From a virus: DNA of 64,000 nucleotides. A program made the translations under genes and the position numbers. The notes below the pieces were generated by a model. It ran no database searches. It was not told where the DNA came from and saw only the letters and a list, made by a program, of their open reading frames with translations. Below are positions 2,306 through 14,783 of the stretch, one piece after another. Each line of letters starts with the position of its first letter. The stretch's first letter is position 1. The stretch spans positions 1 through 64,000 of IMG/VR virus record IMGVR_UViG_3300045825_000202. One strand, 5' to 3'.

Positions 2306-2424
2306 TATAACTTAAACCTGACCCTAGGTTGCGCAAATAGATGCCTCGCTACTTAGGGTCATAATAAATTTACATAAACTTAGTGCCGAAGGCACCAATC
2401 TATACACCCTAGGGAATACCATTT

Positions 2425-2679
2425 GCTACACTTATGCGAAGCATAAACTCGCTACACCCTAGGGAATGCTATACTTATGCGAAGCATAAACTCGCTACAC
2501 CTTAGGGAATGCTACACTTATGCGAAGCATAAACTCGCTACACCCTAGGGAATGCTATACTTATGCGAAGCATAAACTCGCTACACCCTAGGGAATGCTA
2601 TACTTATGCGAAGCATAAACTCGCTACACCCTAGGGAATGCTATACTTATGCGAAGCATAAACTCGCTACACCCTAGGG
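2425..2679. repeat. six tandem 43-bp repeats
   Basis: Unit GCTAYACTTATGCGAAGCATAAACTCGCTACACCCTAGGGAAT; CTTATGC recurs at 2431, 2474, 2517, 2560, 2603 and 2646. Confidence 0.95.
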
Positions 2680-3107: not shown

Positions 3108-3665
3108 AGTTTCTGACCCTATGGCTTGGCAAACTTACCTTAATTATAGATACTAAATGCTGGAAGCATAAACTTGCTACAACTTAGGGTCAGGTAGATA
3201 GGCCCCCTGTTACGGACGATAGGGCTGGCGAGGTTCCTGAGTAAAAGTTTATTAGTATAGTTATCGATATTGCTAGCAATATCACTGCATTAAATAATTT
3301 TAGATAGATTGTGAAAACTAATTCCACGCAGCAGACTGTATGAGAAGGACAAGTCTGGCTGTAAATATCCTTCTAGAATTGGCTCGATAAATTTTTTCCG
3401 TTTATACTAGTATAATGCGAATTGGGTGCGTTAGCACAAACCTGCACAACTTAGGGTCAGAAACTAACTAAAAATATTATTGCTATGGTTATATGTTAGA
3501 ATATTTTAGTATAACATTTTTGTACTAGCACTACAATTGACCCTAAGTTACAGCGACTTGTCACACTAATGAGAATCCCTTCTAGATTGGTATAATTTTA
3601 GAAGTTTTAGAAGTTTTTAAGAAGTTTTTAAGAATCGCTACAACCTAGGGTCGAGAAATTTAGTA

Positions 3666-3694
3666 TTGACACTATGTTACTAAAGTAGTATAAT
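3666..3694 (+). promoter_or_regulatory. sigma70 promoter
   Basis: Perfect TTGACA-17-TATAAT. Confidence 0.85.
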
Positions 3695-3906
3695 TAACGC
3701 ATACACCAAAGTATATAGAACTGGACAGTCTCTCGATTTATCGTTTGCTCGCTTGGTCCGACCGTGGTAGGTGCTTTAATAGAGTCCTCCTCCTATGTAA
3801 TAGTGATTGTAGTCCTTCGCCTGTACTCTATTTTAGTGAGTCAGGCTAAACGTATTTGTAGTAGAGGATTAGGGTCGCTAAAACCTAGGGTCGGGAAAAT
3901 TTAGTG

Positions 3907-3935
3907 TTGACTTACGTTTGCAATTGCAGTATAAT
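3907..3935 (+). promoter_or_regulatory. sigma70 promoter
   Basis: TTGACT-17-TATAAT upstream of the GGAG RBS of the next ORF. Confidence 0.8.
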
Positions 3936-4256
3936 ATACATATGCACTTACAAATGGAGAAATATATGCATAAAAATTTAATAGACGCCGGAGTTAATTT
4001 CCCAGTATGGTGGAACGAAGCATTAGTACTAGAAGCAATTTCCACACTAGATACTTTAGACTTATATGAGTATTTTAATAAGCCAAACGCAACTAGCTTT
4101 ACTAGGTTTATGAAACCGTATTTTCCAAATCGTCCAAGTAATATGCCTTATAGCAGGTACGTGCGTAACCTATTAGCAAATGGTGATGCACTAACTCGCT
4201 CGTTTGGCGCTGCATGCTTATATTATACACCCAATAGGGGGCCTAGTCAAGACTAA
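3918..4256 (+). CDS. hypothetical protein (true start probably ATG at 3966)
   Basis: GGAGA RBS precedes MHKNLID; the promoter overlaps the annotated TTG start. Confidence 0.6.
   Translation: MQLQYNIHMHLQMEKYMHKNLIDAGVNFPVWWNEALVLEAISTLDTLDLYEYFNKPNATSFTRFMKPYFPNRPSNMPYSRYVRNLLANGDALTRSFGAACLYYTPNRGPSQD
4222..4250 (-). promoter_or_regulatory. sigma70 promoter, leftward
   Basis: Reverse complement reads TTGACT-17-TATAAT. Confidence 0.7.
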
Positions 4257-4357
4257 GTTTCTATAGGTCGCCCTGAGTAAACGCTATTCTGACCCTAGGG
4301 TGCACATATAGATGCTAAAGCATTAACTTGCGTAAATATAGCATAACAGCTAAAACT

Positions 4358-4390
4358 AAAGCCGCTTTGACTATAAATCAAAGCGGCTTT
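4358..4390. terminator. bidirectional intrinsic terminator
   Basis: 13-bp stem AAAGCCGCTTTGA/TCAAAGCGGCTTT. Confidence 0.85.
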
Positions 4391-4867
4391 CTTGCGGAAC
4401 AAACTTTATAGGCTTGCTAGAACTATTAAGAGCGACCTAATAGTTTTTGGTAGTTCACTCACGACTTTCGTAATGAGTATAGCTAGTGAAATCGAACTTC
4501 ACATTCCTGGTGAAAACCAGATACTTGTATTGTACTATAGCTGTATTTTAAAAGACTTCTTTGTCTACTAGTAATCCCTTAGTGAGGACGTTTCTACCTG
4601 TTTCGGGTCAGGAATTAGTACAATGCGCTAATTACGCCCATCAAGTTTAACGTCATTGAGAGAAGACGATAGTAGCTAATACAATTTAACCTATCAAGGG
4701 CACTACTAGACCAAATTTAACCACTGGGTCGCGTGGAATGAGATTAACGTCATCATTTTAGACGTCGAATAGCTAGATTTACTTTCCTTTTAAGCTATAC
4801 TTAACATAGCACTATACCCTTAAACTATCGGTATTGAGGTGGCCGATATCAGTAAAGCTGATATACT

Positions 4868-5005
4868 CCTTTACTATAAGATCAAAACTAGGCGGGTATG
4901 GGAAGACCCGTGCGATTCGGACTAGTCCGAGCAGTTTGCGACTGAGCAATATTACTATTACTCCTTATAGTTTCGGCCTTGTTTAGGTAAGGCCTCATCA
5001 GAAGG
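4868..5005 (-). ncRNA. type I hammerhead ribozyme (HH-B)
   Basis: Minus strand: CCUU-CUGAUGA-GGCCUU(ACCUAAAC)AAGGCC-GAAA-CUAUAAG...CUUAUAG-UA|AAGG; stems I, II and III all pair; predicted cut at 4872/4871. Confidence 0.88.
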
Positions 5006-5007
5006 TA

Positions 5008-5140
5008 ACCTTTACCCTAAGTTGCATAAGTTCGTTAAGTAGGAGAGTACTCAAGCAGAACCAGCTGATGACTATAGGGTTTCGACTATTATTTATGGAT
5101 GAACTAGTTCATCACTATGCGGCAAGTCTCATCAGAAGAT
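5008..5140 (-). ncRNA. type I hammerhead ribozyme (HH-A)
   Basis: Minus strand: AUCUU-CUGAUGA-GACU...AGUC-GAAA-CCCUA...UAGGG-UA|AAGGU; predicted cut at 5013/5012. Confidence 0.82.
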
Positions 5141-5452
5141 TCCGCAGTCACTAGTCACTAGTGACGAAGATGGCCAGTGCTGAGGTTTGTCACTGTTTAA
5201 GGAATTAATTCGCAGCCGGAACTCCTAGCACTGTAGACGTTAGCGCGTTAGCGCAATTCTCTACAACTTAGTGTCCGGTGATATTTAAGCGACCTCATAA
5301 CCACCAAATTAATTAGATTGAGCGCATCGTCAAAACGTTATTACTAAGAATCATCGGTATTGAATCTTATACGCACTTCAAAATACTAGACTAACCTATT
5401 GCCTCCGGGTTACTTAGTGCGTATTGCGGTCGAAGCTAGGGTCTGTCTATCA

Positions 5453-5770
5453 ATTATACACTTTATTAAGCAGAGAATCAAGACAATTTTTTCACTATCA
5501 TATCAGTCAAAACGTTTCTTATATCTCTATGTATCTATTATACACTACGAAGACCTAGCGACGCAAGTGTAAATTTTCATTACTTATTACATAAAATCTT
5601 TCGTATATGGTTATACTACTTTTCTTTTCTGATATATTATTATACGATATTTTAAGATAGAATTCAAGTATAAATTCTTGAATGTTACGAGTATTTATAC
5701 TTAGAAACTGAGTTGAACGGGTCTTTTGTTTTCATAAAATAATTATAACAAATTTCAAAATTTTATTCAA
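5453..5770 (-). promoter_or_regulatory. four tandem leftward sigma70 promoters
   Basis: TTGATT-17-TATAAT (5481-5453), TTGCGT-18-TATAAT (5566-5537), TTGAAT-17-TATAAT (5667-5639), TTGAAT-17-TATAAT (5770-5742). Confidence 0.85.
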
Positions 5771-5886
5771 GTGGTTATTTTCATACTCTCATTAGTACTA
5801 AGTCACGCGGCCCACTAATATGTTTCTAGAAAATTCTATTGACCACTGGCGCTCAAATTGCTAGCAATTTGATAGCATAGGTATAC

Positions 5887-6002
5887 TTAAGCGGTTGGTT
5901 ATATAAGCGGTGGATTATATAAGCGGTGGGTTATATAAGCGGTGGATTATATAAGCGGTGGGTTATATAAGCGGTGGGTTGTATAAGCGGTGGGTTATAT
6001 AA
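5887..6002. repeat. 16-bp tandem repeat TTATATAAGCGGTGGR (about 7 copies)
   Basis: Full units start at 5899, 5915, 5931, 5947, 5963 and 5979, with partial flanking units. Confidence 0.95.
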
Positions 6003-6229
6003 CTTTATAAGCATGTACTGATATTCCAACTTGGCATGCTTGATGCTAAGGCATAAAATGTGCCAAGCCCTAGGGTCGACAGTAAAGCAAGATTCATACC
6101 AAGTATTTATTTTTAGCAAAGTTGGCACATCGCACAAATCAGCGTATAATGAGGTTGTGAAAGGCCGAGCAAGGCCGCGCAAAATTTGGCGCTAACTTAT
6201 ATAAGCCTTTGCTTATATAAGTGATAAAA

Positions 6230-7614: not shown

Positions 7615-9231
7615 TTAAAGAAAAATAATTTGTCGCTGCCCATTCTGCCAAGTAACGATCGAAGCTAACCGCCACGAACTTGGCCCGATATTATACCCCA
7701 TATCAAGCTCGCAACATCCGGCGGTATAACAGCCGCCTATGATGCTAGGCGAATGAGTGTGGCCTGTGTTCATTTTAACGCCAAGCCCCGCCAGTTGCTG
7801 AGGTGAGCCGCGAGAGCCGTTAGCGCCCGTGTGGCCGTGGCACCCCATCTCAATTCCTGCCAAAATCAATGATTCGTCTGTGCTATGGAAAACGATATTA
7901 TCTTGAATAAGCCCGCCAAATTCACCCACCACATATTCTAGCATATTGAACGGCTCTTTGTACCCAGCATCAATATATTTATATAATTCTAGCATACATT
8001 GAAGATATAAAATAGCATTAGTAGGATCTGCTTTATAATCCTCACTCTTGAGCCATGTATTAATAGCTAGATCGTGGTTAGATTCTATAATGTGCGTCAT
8101 TCGATCATACTCAGCGGATAACTTATATATTACATTAGCTACTTTAATAATATCCTTTTCAACGGTATTGCCTTTAGTATGTTGACCGAACATAAAGGTA
8201 CAATCTTTCACATTATGATGATTCCTACTGCTAAAGTCCATTACATCATGCAAGACAGTATGGTATGGGTTAAATTTCTCCAGATGTTCAACTAACATAT
8301 CTAGGTTATTGCTAGATAATCTTTCTGCGTGAATATCCCCGAACTGTAAAGCAATGGGCCTCTGCCCCGTAATAACTTCATTAGCAGAATAATAGTTACC
8401 CTCGTCATAGAATCCATCACATCCCGGCATAATCTCCAAATGTCTAGCAGTCAGTACCCCATTTTTAACGGATACATACAGTGCACTAATGTTGTGCATA
8501 CTTGCCGCGACAGCACCGGCTTTACGTAATATATAATTACGCCGAGTGATACTACCCGTGCTAAACAACAGTTTCCCTTCACCATTTTTTAGTGCCGCCG
8601 TTGCCTTCAATGTAATTTTACTTGCAGGTATACACACCGACACACCTACAGGTGTAATGCTCTCAAAACCACTTAAAGGACCCTTGGCCGTTGGATTCAC
8701 GTTGGCTTGGCCGATAAAATGTATAACGCCACCTAAACTAATTTGACCCTCTACAATATATTTTACAATGGCAGGATCATAATAAATACCATCAGTAGCA
8801 TCTTGTGCAACCATAAACCCGGCCTTGTTATAGGTCATTTTTGCTACCATAATTATAGCATTATTATGCTCTGCAAAAGTTTCCAATGCACTCAAAGCCA
8901 CCATATCAACATCAGTGTTATTTTGCGCAACCGTTAACACATAGTTTCCCTCAGGATACTCCTGTACGTGTCCAGATGCGCTATCCGTGCCGCTAGACAA
9001 TGGTTTTGCGGCGTCTGACTCGATCTTATCAAAAGCCTTTTTAATTCGGTTTTGTGAGACTTCATGACGACGACTTACTTCAGCCTGCAAGATAACTAAT
9101 ACAGTATATTTATCAGCATTTTCAAATTCTTGTAGTTCAAGCAGTTCACCGAGCAGGACTTCGCGCTTCTCTTCAGACTTTGCACGAAAATAGCCCATAG
9201 TTTGCGCAGTTAAGATAGTTTGCTGTTTCAT
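7615..9231 (-). CDS. A1: T5 A1-like protein (second-step transfer / host DNA degradation), metallophosphoesterase fold
   Basis: 538 aa; AQNNT, GDIH, HD, SNHD, HGH.G.NGSRGS and GHTHS motifs. Confidence 0.85.
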   Translation of the reverse strand: MKQQTILTAQTMGYFRAKSEEKREVLLGELLELQEFENADKYTVLVILQAEVSRRHEVSQNRIKKAFDKIESDAAKPLSSGTDSASGHVQEYPEGNYVLTVAQNNTDVDMVALSALETFAEHNNAIIMVAKMTYNKAGFMVAQDATDGIYYDPAIVKYIVEGQISLGGVIHFIGQANVNPTAKGPLSGFESITPVGVSVCIPASKITLKATAALKNGEGKLLFSTGSITRRNYILRKAGAVAASMHNISALYVSVKNGVLTARHLEIMPGCDGFYDEGNYYSANEVITGQRPIALQFGDIHAERLSSNNLDMLVEHLEKFNPYHTVLHDVMDFSSRNHHNVKDCTFMFGQHTKGNTVEKDIIKVANVIYKLSAEYDRMTHIIESNHDLAINTWLKSEDYKADPTNAILYLQCMLELYKYIDAGYKEPFNMLEYVVGEFGGLIQDNIVFHSTDESLILAGIEMGCHGHTGANGSRGSPQQLAGLGVKMNTGHTHSPSIIGGCYTAGCCELDMGYNIGPSSWRLASIVTWQNGQRQIIFL

Positions 9232-13455: not shown

Positions 13456-14783
13456 TGCTAGTTATCTCTAGACCTGGTATAAGTAGTACTGAGATTACAG
13501 AGTTTCCTCTACATTCTAGGTTTATTAAATTACCAATAGAGAATTATTTAAAGCTATTACCTACAGTAGACCCTATTACATATAAAAAGTCAACTGCGTG
13601 GGACCAAATCAATGGGCCCCAGCTTGCGCTTATTAACTGTATTAATTCGCCCCGTTACAGATTTGTGTGTGCTGCCCTAGCTAGACGACTTGGTAAGACA
13701 TTTATAGCTAATATTATCGCTCAGTTAGTAGTTCTAGTACCAGGGTCAAATGTACTTGTAATGTCACCTAATTTTAGTTTAAGCAGTATTTCATTCGAAC
13801 TTCAGAGAATGCTTGTTAAGACTTTTGATTTAGAAATAACTAAGGATAACGCCAAAGATCGAGTATTAGAACTAGCTAATGGCTCTACAGTTAGAGTAGG
13901 TTCTATATCTACAGTAGATAGTTGTGTAGGACGCAGTTATACCCTTATTCTGTTTGACGAGGCTGCTTTAGGAAAAGATGCGGAAGAAGCCTTTAACGTC
14001 AGTCTAAGACCTACCCTAGACCGTCCAGACTCCAAGTGCATATTCATTAGTACTCCTCGCGGAAAGAATAATTTCTTTAGTAGATTCTACCAAAGAGGAT
14101 TTAGTGACGAATTCCCTCAGTGGGCCTCTATAACTGCTACGTATCATGAAAACCCTAGAATGAGCGAAGTAGACGTAGAAGAAGCTAGAAGAAGTATGAG
14201 TAAGGCTCTATTTGAGCAAGAATACCTAAGTAGTTTCAGCACCTTCGAAGGACAGATCTACCAAGGGTATCTGCCTGAATATACTAAAGAGTTTGAGCAT
14301 AAAGAGGGTATGGAGTATATTGGCGGAGTTGACGTTGGTTTCCGCGACCCTACAGCTTTTGTAGTTATATCGTATGATAATAATAGTGGAATTTTCCATG
14401 TATTAGAAGATTATGTCCAAGCAGGTGTTACAACTAGTGTACACGCTAAAGTATTTCAAGACGCTATAGATAAATATGGTATTGAGTCAATATTCATTGA
14501 TAGTGCAGCAGCACAAACAGCCGCTGACTTAAGCTTTACTTATAATATAGGAACTATTAAAGCTAAGAAGTCTATTTTAGACGGTATTGCGTATGTGCAA
14601 GCGTTAATAGAACACGGTAAGTTAAACGTTTCTCCTAACTGTCTAGATACATTAGCAATGCTTGACCAATATAAGTGGAAAACTGATGCAGTTTCTGGAG
14701 TAGAAAAACCTGATCACGATAAGTACTCTCACGCAGCAGATGCTTTACGATACGCCCTATACTCATTCACTACAGGATATTAA
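13455..14783 (+). CDS. terL: terminase large subunit
   Basis: ARRLGKT Walker A, LFDEAA Walker B, ISTP motif and RNase H-like nuclease (DVG...D, H..DALRY). Confidence 0.95.
   Translation: MLVISRPGISSTEITEFPLHSRFIKLPIENYLKLLPTVDPITYKKSTAWDQINGPQLALINCINSPRYRFVCAALARRLGKTFIANIIAQLVVLVPGSNVLVMSPNFSLSSISFELQRMLVKTFDLEITKDNAKDRVLELANGSTVRVGSISTVDSCVGRSYTLILFDEAALGKDAEEAFNVSLRPTLDRPDSKCIFISTPRGKNNFFSRFYQRGFSDEFPQWASITATYHENPRMSEVDVEEARRSMSKALFEQEYLSSFSTFEGQIYQGYLPEYTKEFEHKEGMEYIGGVDVGFRDPTAFVVISYDNNSGIFHVLEDYVQAGVTTSVHAKVFQDAIDKYGIESIFIDSAAAQTAADLSFTYNIGTIKAKKSILDGIAYVQALIEHGKLNVSPNCLDTLAMLDQYKWKTDAVSGVEKPDHDKYSHAADALRYALYSFTTGY

What the first reader, a model, noticed from the sequence alone, without database searches (positions are those of the whole stretch)
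4641..4766. Array of four ~28-nt H-type pseudoknots with a shared GUUAA linker, reminiscent of type III antitoxin RNAs
Seen (minus strand, consecutive): ACGUC-uaaAAUGAu-GACGU-UAAUC-UCAUU (4766-4737); CCAC-gcGACCca-GUGG-UUAAAUUU-GGUC (4736-4709); a weaker CCU-UGAU-AGG-UUAAAUUG-UAUUA (4700-4677); CGUC-uucucUCAAu-GACG-UUAAAC-UUGA (4668-4641). Sequences differ but stem 1, the GUUAA linker and the loop-pairing tail are kept, which amounts to internal covariation. Known: ToxI antitoxins are tandem ~36-nt pseudoknots with a short stem followed by UUAAG, and phage phiTE uses pseudo-ToxI repeats to escape ToxIN. Inference: a diversified panel of antitoxin mimics or other protein decoys in the 3' ribozyme product.
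Basis: partly seen in the sequence, partly recalled or inferred. Interest (0 to 1): 0.78.

Follow-up and report, generated by a model that had tools for sequence, protein, structure and literature searches.

The report
Coremin-like RNA knot array in phage
A T5-like phage carries, inside a self-cleaving non-coding RNA made early in infection, a row of three or four tiny knotted RNA folds built like the plant-virus 'coremin' element (and like the ToxI antitoxin), which probably act as mechanical roadblocks or protein-binding knots; there is no evidence that they mimic a known antitoxin.

Summary
Units 1, 2 and 4 are far from chance. A pattern fixed to the family geometry occurs 3 times within 100 nt here, against 0.0033 per kb in 4.3 Mb of other T5-like phage DNA, and 0 of 5000 shuffles reproduce it. 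Unit 3 cannot form the knot as drawn, but it is a 3-bp hairpin with a UGAU loop.

The closest known match is the coremin motif (xrRNA-C) and its Watson-Crick variant, not ToxI. Units 1 and 4 carry coremin's own stem CGUC/GACG, its UUAAAC/UUAAUC spacer, a one-U second loop and a second stem that starts right after the spacer. I found the same geometry in many unrelated phage contigs.

The antitoxin-mimic reading lacks support: no tandem identical repeats, no match in plasmid records, no ToxN match in the record (control silent).

Caveats:
- The nearest relatives of this hammerhead-processed RNA lack units 1-3.
- The relative's unit-4 tail does not pair with its loop.
- Strong long-range helices compete for units 2-4.

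This scan has noted coremin-like knots on other DNA (124 notes); no paper I could search links coremin with bacteriophages.

The parts
4737..4765 (-). Unit 1: ACGUC-uaa-AAUGA-u-GACGU-UAAUC-UCAUU. Read in the coremin frame it is CGUC / 9-nt loop / GACG / spacer UUAAUC / S2 UCAUU.
   Evidence: It has the same hp1 stem as published coremin, the second loop is a single U, and S2 starts directly after the 6-nt spacer. Its S1 hairpin is kept in the MFE and centroid folds.
4709..4736 (-). Unit 2: CCAC-gc-GACC-ca-GUGG-UUAAAUUU-GGUC. A divergent unit with a different stem, a 2-nt second loop and an 8-nt linker.
   Evidence: A competitor exists: 4732-4710 is complementary to 4451-4432, with duplex energy -23.2 kcal/mol and 0 of 1000 shuffles as good.
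4677..4700 (-). Unit 3: CCU-UGAU-AGG-UUAAAUUG-UAUUA. It is not a feasible H-type knot. It is a 3-bp hairpin with a UGAU tetraloop followed by GUUAAAU.
   Evidence: +3.1 kcal/mol as a pseudoknot. The UGAU loop fits coremin's YGAD loop rule, and the U-A closing pair is tolerated (PMC6546385). The spacer's 3' part is UUGU, not CUAC.
4641..4668 (-). Unit 4: CGUC-uucuc-UCAA-u-GACG-UUAAAC-UUGA. This is the best coremin-type unit.
   Evidence: Outside the loop it is identical to coremin at CGUC...GACGUUAAACU (coremin sequence from PMC10520033). The hp1 hairpin has a counterpart in relative G001 (AGUC...GACU, outer pair C-G changed to A-U; sequence read). S2 is not conserved there.
4872..5006 (-). Hammerhead HH-B, type I: stem I CCUU/AAGG, core CUGAUGA at 5001, stem III ACUAUAAG/CUUAUAGU. 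It cuts after 4872 and so makes the 5' end of the RNA that carries the array.
   Evidence: Strict three-stem scan. The Rfam HH3 model gives only 28.7 bits on a different, worse register.
5013..5141 (-). Hammerhead HH-A, type I: stem I AAUCUU/AAGGUU, core at 5135, stem III ACCCUA/UAGGGU. It cuts after 5013.
   Evidence: Homologous hammerheads with covarying stems occur in L005 (cut after 13656) and in G001/L211 (cut after 277).
5453..5770 (-). Cluster of sigma70-like promoters that fire leftward into the non-coding RNA: 5770-5742, 5667-5639 and 5481-5453, plus a site at about 5565-5537 seen by eye.
   Evidence: sequence.
4358..4390 (-). Intrinsic terminator that closes the non-coding RNA.
   Evidence: 15-bp stem followed by a U-rich tail.
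4520..4655 (-). Conserved 3' core of the RNA family, directly downstream of unit 4.
   Evidence: 77% identity to G001. Alignments. 10 of 37 consensus pairs show compensatory changes. One block is shared with L346.
4428..4455 (-). Distal segment complementary to unit 2 (candidate long-range helix).
4566..4582 (-). Distal segment complementary to the unit 2/3 spacer and to the 5' arm of unit 3 (CUAGUAGUgCCCUU : AAGGGAUUACUAG).
   Evidence: -17.3 kcal/mol, 1 of 1000 shuffles as good. G001 can form CUAGAAA:UUUCUAG at a comparable place (read).

Best explanation
The stretch is a tandem set of small RNA modules of the coremin / xrRNA-WCC fold class. Each has a 3-5-bp hairpin, then a (G)UUAA(A/U)(C/U) linker. 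In units 1, 2 and 4 a tail follows that pairs back into the hairpin loop to close a compact H-type pseudoknot. ToxI uses the same geometry.

The modules sit about 105 nt behind the 5'-OH end made by hammerhead HH-B. They lie in a lineage-specific, variable segment of a promoter-to-terminator non-coding RNA, in the pre-early region of a T5-like phage (the region beside the A1 gene), just ahead of the RNA's conserved 3' core.

Inferred mechanism, not shown: the knots act as mechanical obstacles or insulators for enzymes that track along RNA from the 5' side. Candidates are a 5'-3' exoribonuclease of the RNase J type, scanning RNase E, Rho, or ribosomes. By blocking them the knots would shield the conserved core. 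This parallels coremin, which stalls Xrn1 and scanning ribosomes. The knots may alternate with long-range helices that dock this segment onto the core.

My odds: about 0.6 that they belong to this fold class, and about 0.3-0.35 that they work as roadblocks.
For: 1. Non-random array: 3 geometry-anchored hits within 100 nt, against 0.0033 per kb in 4.29 Mb of T5-like loci. 0 of 5000 shuffles reproduce it, and there is no other cluster in 2.25 Mb.

2. Sequence match to published coremin, GUCCGAAGACGUUAAACUAC, which has a 4-bp hp1 CGUC/GACG (PMC10520033; PMC6546385). Units 1 and 4 have exactly CGUC...GACG followed by UUAAUC and UUAAAC. Unit 3 has a UGAU loop that fits the YGAD rule, with a tolerated U-A closing pair.

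3. [quoted passage not shown] Units 1, 2 and 4 do the same.

4. An independent phage family exists. A loop-tail S2 of 5 bp or more occurs in 22 of them, against 3 in a control with permuted tails. The dominant geometry is S2 directly after UUAAAC with a one-nucleotide second loop, which is U in 19 of 24 cases. Units 1 and 4 have exactly this geometry.

5. Between units 1 and 4, three S2 pairs differ on both sides (G-C/A-U, U-A/C-G, A-U/U-A), read directly from the sequence.

6. Context: hammerheads with all three stems, promoters and a terminator, a 3' product that folds far better than shuffles (z = -4.3), and a core with compensatory changes.
Against: - The closest relatives of the RNA do not conserve the array. 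G001 has about 59 nt where this phage has about 200 nt, and it lacks units 1-3 and HH-B. L346, L005 and L003 carry other inserts.
- In G001 the unit-4 hairpin is kept, but its tail cannot pair with the loop. Instead the tail takes part in a long-range helix (ACUUG:CAAGU here, AUUCG:CGAGU in G001) with one compensatory change.
- Units 2-4 have much stronger distal partners: -23.2, -17.3 and -15.9 kcal/mol.
- Crude energies put each knot no lower than its plain hairpin. The same calculation does this for ToxI, a proven knot, so it discriminates poorly.
- Loop 1 here is 2-5 nt (3-5 nt in units 1 and 4) and the hairpin loops are 8-10 nt, against 1-2 nt and 8 nt in typical phage members.
- Coremin needs a second hairpin directly downstream to stall Xrn1. 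Only unit 1 has one at zero distance (it is unit 2's own hairpin), and the phage family shows no enrichment for one (4 of 39 against 12.5% in controls).
- There are no expression or probing data.
- The host is unknown, so I cannot say whether it has a 5'-3' exoribonuclease.
Confidence: 0.55

Rival explanations
1. The segment is simply part of one large nested fold of the 3' hammerhead product. Units 2-4 pair with distal segments (4451-4432, 4580-4568, 4610-4587 or 4526-4522) to close the conserved core. On this view the local loop-tail pairings are accidental or only transient alternatives.
For: - The MFE of the 517-nt product is -140 kcal/mol with z = -4.3, and it uses these long-range helices.
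- The duplex energies are -23.2, -17.3 and -15.9 kcal/mol, with 0-3 of 1000 shuffles as good.
- The helix that uses unit 4's tail shows a compensatory change in G001, and G001's own tail cannot pair with its loop.
- The palindromic tetranucleotides ACGU and CUAG are frequent here and create many alternative pairings.
Against: - It does not explain the five GUUAA motifs.
- It does not explain the identity of the unit 1 and unit 4 stems and spacers with coremin.
- It does not explain the exact family geometry of a one-U second loop with S2 directly after the spacer.
- The helices were picked from the MFE after the fact, so their shuffle counts are flattering.
- Only two sequences support the covariation.
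- Unit 1 is fully compatible with the MFE, so the two models are not exclusive.
Confidence: 0.2
2. The units are decoys for a host type III toxin (ToxN, AbiQ, CptN or TenpN) or for another RNA-binding defence protein. A strong pre-early promoter cluster would express them to neutralise abortive infection once the phage shuts off host transcription.
For: - The geometry is the same as that of the verified ToxI repeat: 4-bp S1, one-U second loop, UUAAGU linker.
- tenpI antitoxins are reported to have non-identical repeats that can still form pseudoknots (PMC12283969).
- Phage phiTE escapes ToxIN with pseudo-ToxI RNA (PMC3475682, abstract).
- Early, strong expression in the region injected first would suit an anti-defence RNA (inference).
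- Different relatives carry different inserts at this place.
Against: - The units have no sequence likeness to ToxI beyond UUAA.
- There is no match in the plasmid records or in the phage records.
- They are not tandem sequence repeats.
- There is no spacer between units 1 and 2, so no single-stranded tails there, and no AAAU (ToxN-type) site between units.
- The host and its toxins are unknown.
- Rfam holds no ToxI model. My positive control on pECA1039 gave no ToxI hit, so Rfam's silence is no test either way.
Confidence: 0.1
3. It is a chance pattern or a DNA-level element (protein-binding or injection-stop sites in the T5-type untranslated repeat region) with no RNA-level role.
For: - The region corresponds by position to the untranslated repeat regions of the T5 left terminal repeat, which are thought to act as DNA (bioRxiv 10.1101/866236).
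- Dispersed DNA motifs and tandem repeats surround it.
- The array is absent from relatives.
Against: - The statistics argue against chance.
- The stems differ in sequence yet stay complementary, which a single DNA-binding protein would not require.
- The stretch lies inside a promoter-to-terminator unit with two complete hammerheads.
- The spacing of the units (27, 31 and 39 nt) is not helical.
Confidence: 0.07

Closest known systems
Coremin motif (xrRNA-C) of beny-, cucumo- and other eukaryotic RNA viruses, and its Watson-Crick variant xrRNA-WCC (PMC6546385, PMC10520033, PMC10321173)
   Same: - Units 1 and 4 have the same 4-bp hp1 stem, CGUC/GACG.
- They have the same spacer start: UUAAAC in unit 4, UUAAUC in unit 1, UUAAAU in units 2 and 3.
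[quoted passage not shown]
- Unit 3 has a YGAD-type UGAU tetraloop on a 3-bp stem with a U-A closing pair.
- The overall size is 27-29 nt.
   Different: - The host is a DNA phage, not a eukaryotic RNA virus.
- The hairpin loops are 8-10 nt (apart from unit 3's tetraloop) and do not follow YGAD or YGNNAD.
- S2 is 4-5 Watson-Crick pairs, not 2-3 or non-canonical pairs.
- The conserved CUAC at the end of the spacer is absent.
- The required second hairpin directly downstream is present only for unit 1.
- The units stand in a tandem row inside a ribozyme-processed non-coding RNA.
- Exonuclease resistance is untested, and bacteria have no Xrn1.
Uncatalogued coremin-like pseudoknots of DNA phages. 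The family is sampled here and is noted many times by this scan. I found no paper that links coremin with bacteriophages.
   Same: The layout CGUC - loop - GACG - UUAAAC - tail, with S2 starting directly after the spacer and a one-nucleotide second loop that is usually U. Units 1 and 4 fit this exactly.
   Different: - Typical members have an 8-nt loop (C-N6-U), loop 1 of 1-2 nt and S2 of up to 6 bp.
- A stop triplet lies within 15 nt upstream in 33 of 39 sampled members (no control was run).
- Here loop 1 is 3-5 nt and S2 is 4-5 bp, there are no ORFs nearby, and the units stand in a row.
ToxI, the RNA antitoxin of the type III toxin-antitoxin system ToxIN (P. atrosepticum pECA1039), and the pseudo-ToxI of phage phiTE
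   Same: A compact H-type pseudoknot with a 4-bp S1, a one-U second loop, a 6-nt UUAA-type linker and S2 directly after it (ToxI repeat verified). Phage-borne copies are known to act as decoys (PMC3475682).
   Different: - ToxI is 5.5 near-identical 36-nt repeats with single-stranded tails and an AA/AU cleavage site, placed next to toxN (PMC5086642).
- Here the units differ in sequence, abut one another or are separated by 8 nt, have no such sites between them, and resemble no known antitoxin.
- No toxin gene was found.
Upstream pseudoknot domain of tobamovirus 3' UTRs (cited from my own knowledge)
   Same: Several small pseudoknots in a row within a non-coding part of a viral RNA.
   Different: A eukaryotic RNA virus, a different sequence, and a position next to a tRNA-like end. 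This is an analogy only.

Membership tests
Coremin / xrRNA-C (including xrRNA-WCC) | 5' hairpin hp1 of 3-5 bp, with a pyrimidine-purine loop-closing pair. | tested here: met
   Units 1 and 4 have CGUC/GACG, identical to BNYVV hp1. Unit 2 has CCAC/GUGG. Unit 3 has CCU/AGG with a U-A closing pair.
Coremin / xrRNA-C (including xrRNA-WCC) | Loop 1 consensus YGAD (tetraloop) or YGNNAD (hexaloop). | tested here: not met
   Only unit 3 (UGAU) fits. Units 1, 2 and 4 have 8-10-nt loops without the Y-G start (rules). Hepta- and octaloops are reported as tolerated in some contexts.
Coremin / xrRNA-C (including xrRNA-WCC) | Conserved spacer of about 9-10 nt, (G)UUAAACUAC, with CUAC critical in the classical type. 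| tested here: inconclusive
   UUAAAC(U) is present in unit 4, UUAAUC in unit 1, and UUAAAU in units 2 and 3. CUAC is absent in all four. Relative L003 has the full GUUAAACUAC. In the Watson-Crick variant the spacer's 3' end is free to vary with loop 1.
Coremin / xrRNA-C (including xrRNA-WCC) | [quoted passage not shown] | tested here: met
   By sequence only: 5, 4 and 4 Watson-Crick pairs in units 1, 2 and 4. No probing was done.
Coremin / xrRNA-C (including xrRNA-WCC) | Second hairpin hp2 directly after the spacer (needed for Xrn1 resistance). | tested here: inconclusive
   Unit 1 is followed at once by unit 2's hairpin. Unit 4 is followed by an irregular stem at 4640-4604 in the MFE. Units 2 and 3 have none at the right distance. 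The phage family shows no enrichment.
Coremin / xrRNA-C (including xrRNA-WCC) | Stalls a 5'-3' exoribonuclease or scanning ribosomes. | not testable with these tools
   Needs an in vitro degradation assay.
Phage coremin-like pseudoknot family (sampled) | CGUC...GACG-UUAAAC, S2 directly after the spacer, and a second loop of one nucleotide (usually U). | tested here: met
   Units 1 and 4 have this geometry. The family geometry comes from 39 members with an anchored S2. Unit 2 is a looser variant (S2 2 nt after the spacer, 2-nt second loop).
Type III antitoxin RNA (ToxI, AntiQ, CptI, TenpI) | Tandem direct repeats of one unit of about 34-45 nt or more (near-identical in ToxI; non-identical repeats reported for tenpI). 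| tested here: not met
   Tandem Repeats Finder finds no repeat in 4641-4766. The units share only the GUUAA motif and, for units 1 and 4, the stem.
Type III antitoxin RNA (ToxI, AntiQ, CptI, TenpI) | Each unit forms an H-type pseudoknot flanked by single-stranded tails that carry the toxin's A-rich cleavage site. | tested here: not met
   The knots can be drawn for three units. However, units 1 and 2 abut with no spacer, and the 8-nt spacers (UAGUAGUG, GCUACUAU) hold no AAAU (ToxN-type) site. AAAU occurs only inside the linkers of units 2 and 3.
Type III antitoxin RNA (ToxI, AntiQ, CptI, TenpI) | An adjacent ToxN, AbiQ, CptN or TenpN toxin gene; or, for a mimic, sequence likeness to a host antitoxin. 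| tested here: inconclusive
   No PF13958 match in the 95.8-kb record, but the control genomes gave nothing either. No blastn match to plasmids at E <= 1. The host is unknown.
Hammerhead ribozyme, type I (context of the '3' ribozyme product') | CUGAUGA and GAAA cores with stems I, II and III, and a cleavage site that is not followed by G. | tested here: met
   HH-A and HH-B both pass a strict three-stem scan. In the roughly 2.3 Mb of T5-like loci held at that point, the only other hit was the homologue in L005. A later sample of hammerhead-bearing contigs gave 19 further passes.

The most novel reading that the evidence does not exclude
T5-like phages of this clade make, from the DNA that enters the cell first, a hammerhead-processed scaffold RNA. 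Its conserved 3' core is preceded by a swappable cassette slot. Different relatives load different small RNA modules there: a coremin/ToxI-fold knot array here, a tRNA-like element plus a duplicated 65-nt element in L346, and almost nothing in G001. These modules would serve as RNA decoys or shields against host nucleases of defence systems. The coremin fold and the ToxI fold would then be one structural class, used in bacteria, phages and eukaryotic RNA viruses.
Probability: 0.12. Interest if true: 0.8.

Novelty: new variant of a known kind. Interest (0 to 1): 0.5.

Why it matters
If the knots fold as proposed, the coremin type of nuclease- and ribosome-proof RNA knot is not confined to eukaryotic RNA viruses. 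A DNA phage would be using it too, here stacked in a row inside a self-cleaving early non-coding RNA.

That gives a compact, testable case for two questions:
- What do such knots block in bacteria, which lack Xrn1? Candidates are RNase J, scanning RNase E and Rho.
- Are the coremin fold and the ToxI antitoxin fold the same structural solution?

The finding also marks a variable slot in an undescribed phage RNA family, where anti-defence RNA modules might be sought.

Tried and rejected
- **Rfam.** No family matched at gathering score in the window or in ten relatives, and nothing up to E = 10 in 4560-4860. A positive control on the real ToxI locus gave no ToxI hit. Rfam's silence therefore says nothing about ToxI, and I did not use it as a test.
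- **blastn.** The 1.7-kb non-coding block had no match in phage records. The array had no match in plasmids.
The closest A1 relatives (P0002 at 69% identity, P0003-P0010 at about 60%) could not be fetched.
I have no expression data, RNA ends or population variants, and read laying was not used.
- **Relatives found through the A1 protein.** In viral and metagenome contigs they reach only 57-58% identity, and their RNAs align poorly.
- **Wider motif scans.** The 15-mer TGCAACTTAGGGTAA gave only chance hits plus L005's own contig.
- **Covariance model of the units.** I did not build it. MAFFT put unit 2's stem out of register, and a 4-bp stem plus 5 nt carries too little information. Explicit pattern scans that include S2 did the same job.
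- **Looser pattern.** Widening the linker to [AT]TAA drowned the signal in AT-rich noise.
- **PreQ1-I aptamers and CRISPR-repeat mimics.** I considered both from memory. Rfam gave no PreQ1 hit and I ran no control for that model, so this is weak. The unit spacing of 27-39 nt does not fit a repeat-spacer period of about 60-70 nt (my own knowledge; not tested). I dropped both.
- **ARAGORN.** It finds no tRNA or tmRNA in the window or in the related loci.
- **Pseudoknot predictors (IPknot, pKiss).** Not installed. Only a crude stacking-plus-penalty estimate was possible.

Full report
**Setting.** The window is the first 64 kb of a 95.8-kb virus record.
- It encodes an A1-type 'DNA transfer protein' at 7615-9231 on the minus strand (PHROG 1745, E 9e-145). 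This protein is about 40% identical to the A1 proteins of T5-like phages.
- It also encodes a HAD phosphatase like T5 dmp and 15 tRNA genes at 78-89 kb. It is therefore a distant T5-like phage.
- Downstream of A1 and two small genes lie a terminator (6266-6234), a 16-bp x 7.2 tandem repeat (5888-6002) and a cluster of sigma70-like promoters.
- About 1.1 kb of ORF-free sequence on the minus strand follows, ending at an intrinsic terminator at 4390-4358.
- By position this corresponds to the untranslated repeat regions of the T5 left terminal repeat (bioRxiv 10.1101/866236).

**The ribozymes.** A strict scan required the CUGAUGA and GAAA cores plus all three stems.
- It finds two type I hammerheads: HH-A (core 5135, cut after 5013) and HH-B (core 5001, cut after 4872).
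- In the roughly 2.3 Mb of T5-like loci held at that point, the only other hit was a homologue in relative L005.
- A further homologue is in G001/L211. Stems I and III covary among these hammerheads.
- The array therefore lies in the 3' product, 4871 to about 4358, some 105 nt from its 5' end.

**Checking the observation.** The four stretches read as stated; unit 1 starts at 4765.
- With Watson-Crick pairs only, units 1, 2 and 4 have S1 of 5, 4 and 4 bp and S2 of 5, 4 and 4 bp.
- Loose rules that allow G-U pairs are met by about 29% of all GTTAA sites. Strict rules are met by 0.7% (42 of 5979) in 2.25 Mb of T5-like DNA, with no other cluster.
- 0 of 5000 shuffles gave three units.
- Unit 3 cannot be an H-type knot, because its S2 would consume the entire 4-nt loop.
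- The stretch is not a sequence repeat, and its nested fold is unremarkable (z = -0.03).

**What it resembles.** Earlier notes of this scan on other genomes pointed to the coremin motif. I treated that as a lead and tested it.
- The published motif is GUCCGAAGACGUUAAACUAC (PMC10520033).
- It has a 3-5-bp hairpin (CGUC/GACG when 4 bp) with a YGAD loop, a conserved spacer of about 10 nt, and a second hairpin (PMC6546385).
- It has a Watson-Crick variant in which the loop pairs with the spacer's 3' end to form a small H-type pseudoknot (PMC10321173).
- Units 1 and 4 carry exactly CGUC...GACG, then UUAAUC and UUAAAC, then a tail that pairs into the loop and leaves a single U before GACG.
- Unit 3 is a 3-bp hairpin with a UGAU loop (YGAD) and a U-A closing pair, followed by GUUAAAU.

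**The same knot in other phages.**
- A loop-tail S2 of 5 bp or more occurs in 22 sites, against 3 when the tails are permuted.
- The dominant geometry is S2 directly after UUAAAC with a one-nucleotide second loop, U in 19 of 24 cases. Units 1 and 4 have this geometry.
- A pattern anchored to that geometry occurs 14 times in 4.29 Mb of other T5-like loci, but 3 times within 100 nt here.
- I found no paper that links coremin with bacteriophages.

**ToxI.** I verified the ToxI repeat on pECA1039.
- It reads AGGU-gauu-UGC-U-ACCU-UUAAGU-GCA. This is the same geometry: 4-bp S1, one-U second loop, 6-nt UUAA linker.
- Membership in the antitoxin family fails, however, on these points:
  - there is no tandem sequence repeat;
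  - units 1 and 2 abut with no spacer, and no AAAU (ToxN-type) site lies between units;
  - there is no likeness to plasmid sequences;
  - no ToxN match was found in the record, although the control was silent.
- Rfam holds no ToxI model (control), so its silence is not evidence.

**Relatives.** A hammerhead-based pattern search found a closer relative of the RNA, G001 (a 96-kb record; locus L221).
- Its 3' core is 77% identical to 4632-4523.
- G001 has a single hammerhead and only about 59 nt where this phage has HH-B plus about 200 nt. Units 1-3 are absent.
- The unit-4 hairpin is present in G001 as AGUC...GACU, with the outer pair changed on both sides. It is followed by AUAAAU, but its tail cannot pair with its loop.
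- RNAalifold instead pairs that tail with a segment about 120 nt downstream, with one compensatory change.
- G001 has a second hairpin-AUAAAC-tail unit just upstream. L003 has one unit with the full GUUAAACUAC spacer. L346 and L005 have none.
- L346 carries other inserts at this place. The array is therefore a lineage-specific filling of a variable slot.

**Competing structure.**
- The 517-nt 3' product folds far better than shuffles (z = -4.3).
- Its MFE pairs unit 2 with 4451-4432 (-23.2 kcal/mol), the unit 2/3 spacer with 4580-4568 (-17.3) and unit 4's 3' half with 4610-4587 (-15.9).
- A crude energy estimate puts each knot no lower than its plain hairpin. The same is true for ToxI, a proven knot.
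- The knots and the long-range helices may be alternatives. With only two alignable sequences I cannot decide.

**Verdict.** The array is real, with three good units and one hairpin-only unit. It belongs most probably to the coremin / xrRNA-WCC fold class, which ToxI shares. A roadblock or shielding role for the conserved core is the best-fitting mechanism, but it is inferred. The antitoxin-mimic reading is neither supported nor excluded.

Noticed in passing
window 2424-2679: A 43-bp x 6.0 tandem array with 97% matches. On the minus strand each copy fits hairpin-AUAAG-tail (GCGA-guuuaugcu-UCGC-AUAAGUAUA-GCAU). As tandem near-identical knot-capable repeats, it looks more like a type III antitoxin array than the finding does. 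The transcribed strand is unknown.
   Followed up: partly
window 3113-6078, both strands; L005 12757-14920: The motif CAAC(Y)TAGGGTC recurs about a dozen times in both orientations across the non-coding block, and also in relatives. It equals the 3' strand of hammerhead stem III plus the cleavage site (UUAGGGUA|). In L005 two inverted copies inside the RNA form a perfect 15-bp helix (13920-13934 with 14143-14157).
   Followed up: partly
window 5888-6002: A 16-bp tandem repeat x 7.2 (TAAGCGGTGGGTTATA) between the pre-early terminator and the promoters of the non-coding RNA. It is reminiscent of the direct-repeat arrays in the T5 injection-stop region.
   Followed up: no
G000 1-254 and 95539-95792: The two ends of the 95.8-kb record overlap by 254 bp at 99.6% identity. 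The contig is probably a circular or terminally redundant assembly, although it is classed as linear.
   Followed up: no
G000 78228-89496 (outside the window): 15 tRNA genes in one cluster on the minus strand, as in T5-like phages. The geometry-anchored pattern scan finds no coremin-like unit there.
   Followed up: partly
L346 about 10400-10330 (minus strand): The related RNA of L346 holds a tRNA-like piece: a T-arm GGUGGUUCGAAUCCACC, then an acceptor-like 7-bp stem closed by a loop, then a D-arm-like CGCU...AGCG. A 65-nt duplication follows. ARAGORN calls no tRNA.
   Followed up: partly
window 3918-4256 (+); L221 12546-12929 (-); L003 17315-17695 (-): A small protein of about 112-127 aa lies convergent with the non-coding RNA and shares its terminator. 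It is weakly conserved in three relatives (motif FPNRP / FPNKP / CPNRP) and has no Pfam or PHROG match.
   Followed up: partly
L221 (G001:36000-53000): Relative G001 keeps the A2-like and neighbouring genes, but no A1 homologue was found in the record.
   Followed up: partly
window 4486-4502 (-): A hairpin GUGAA-GUUCGAU-UUCAC with a T-loop-like UUCGA loop, inside the 3' part of the RNA.
   Followed up: no
L488 3583-3655; L527 112-207; L476: Other phage contigs carry two or three coremin-type units close together. Some have YGNNAD-type loops (CGCAAU, CGAGAU) and the full UUAAACUAC spacer, which is the classical coremin form, here in DNA phages.
   Followed up: partly
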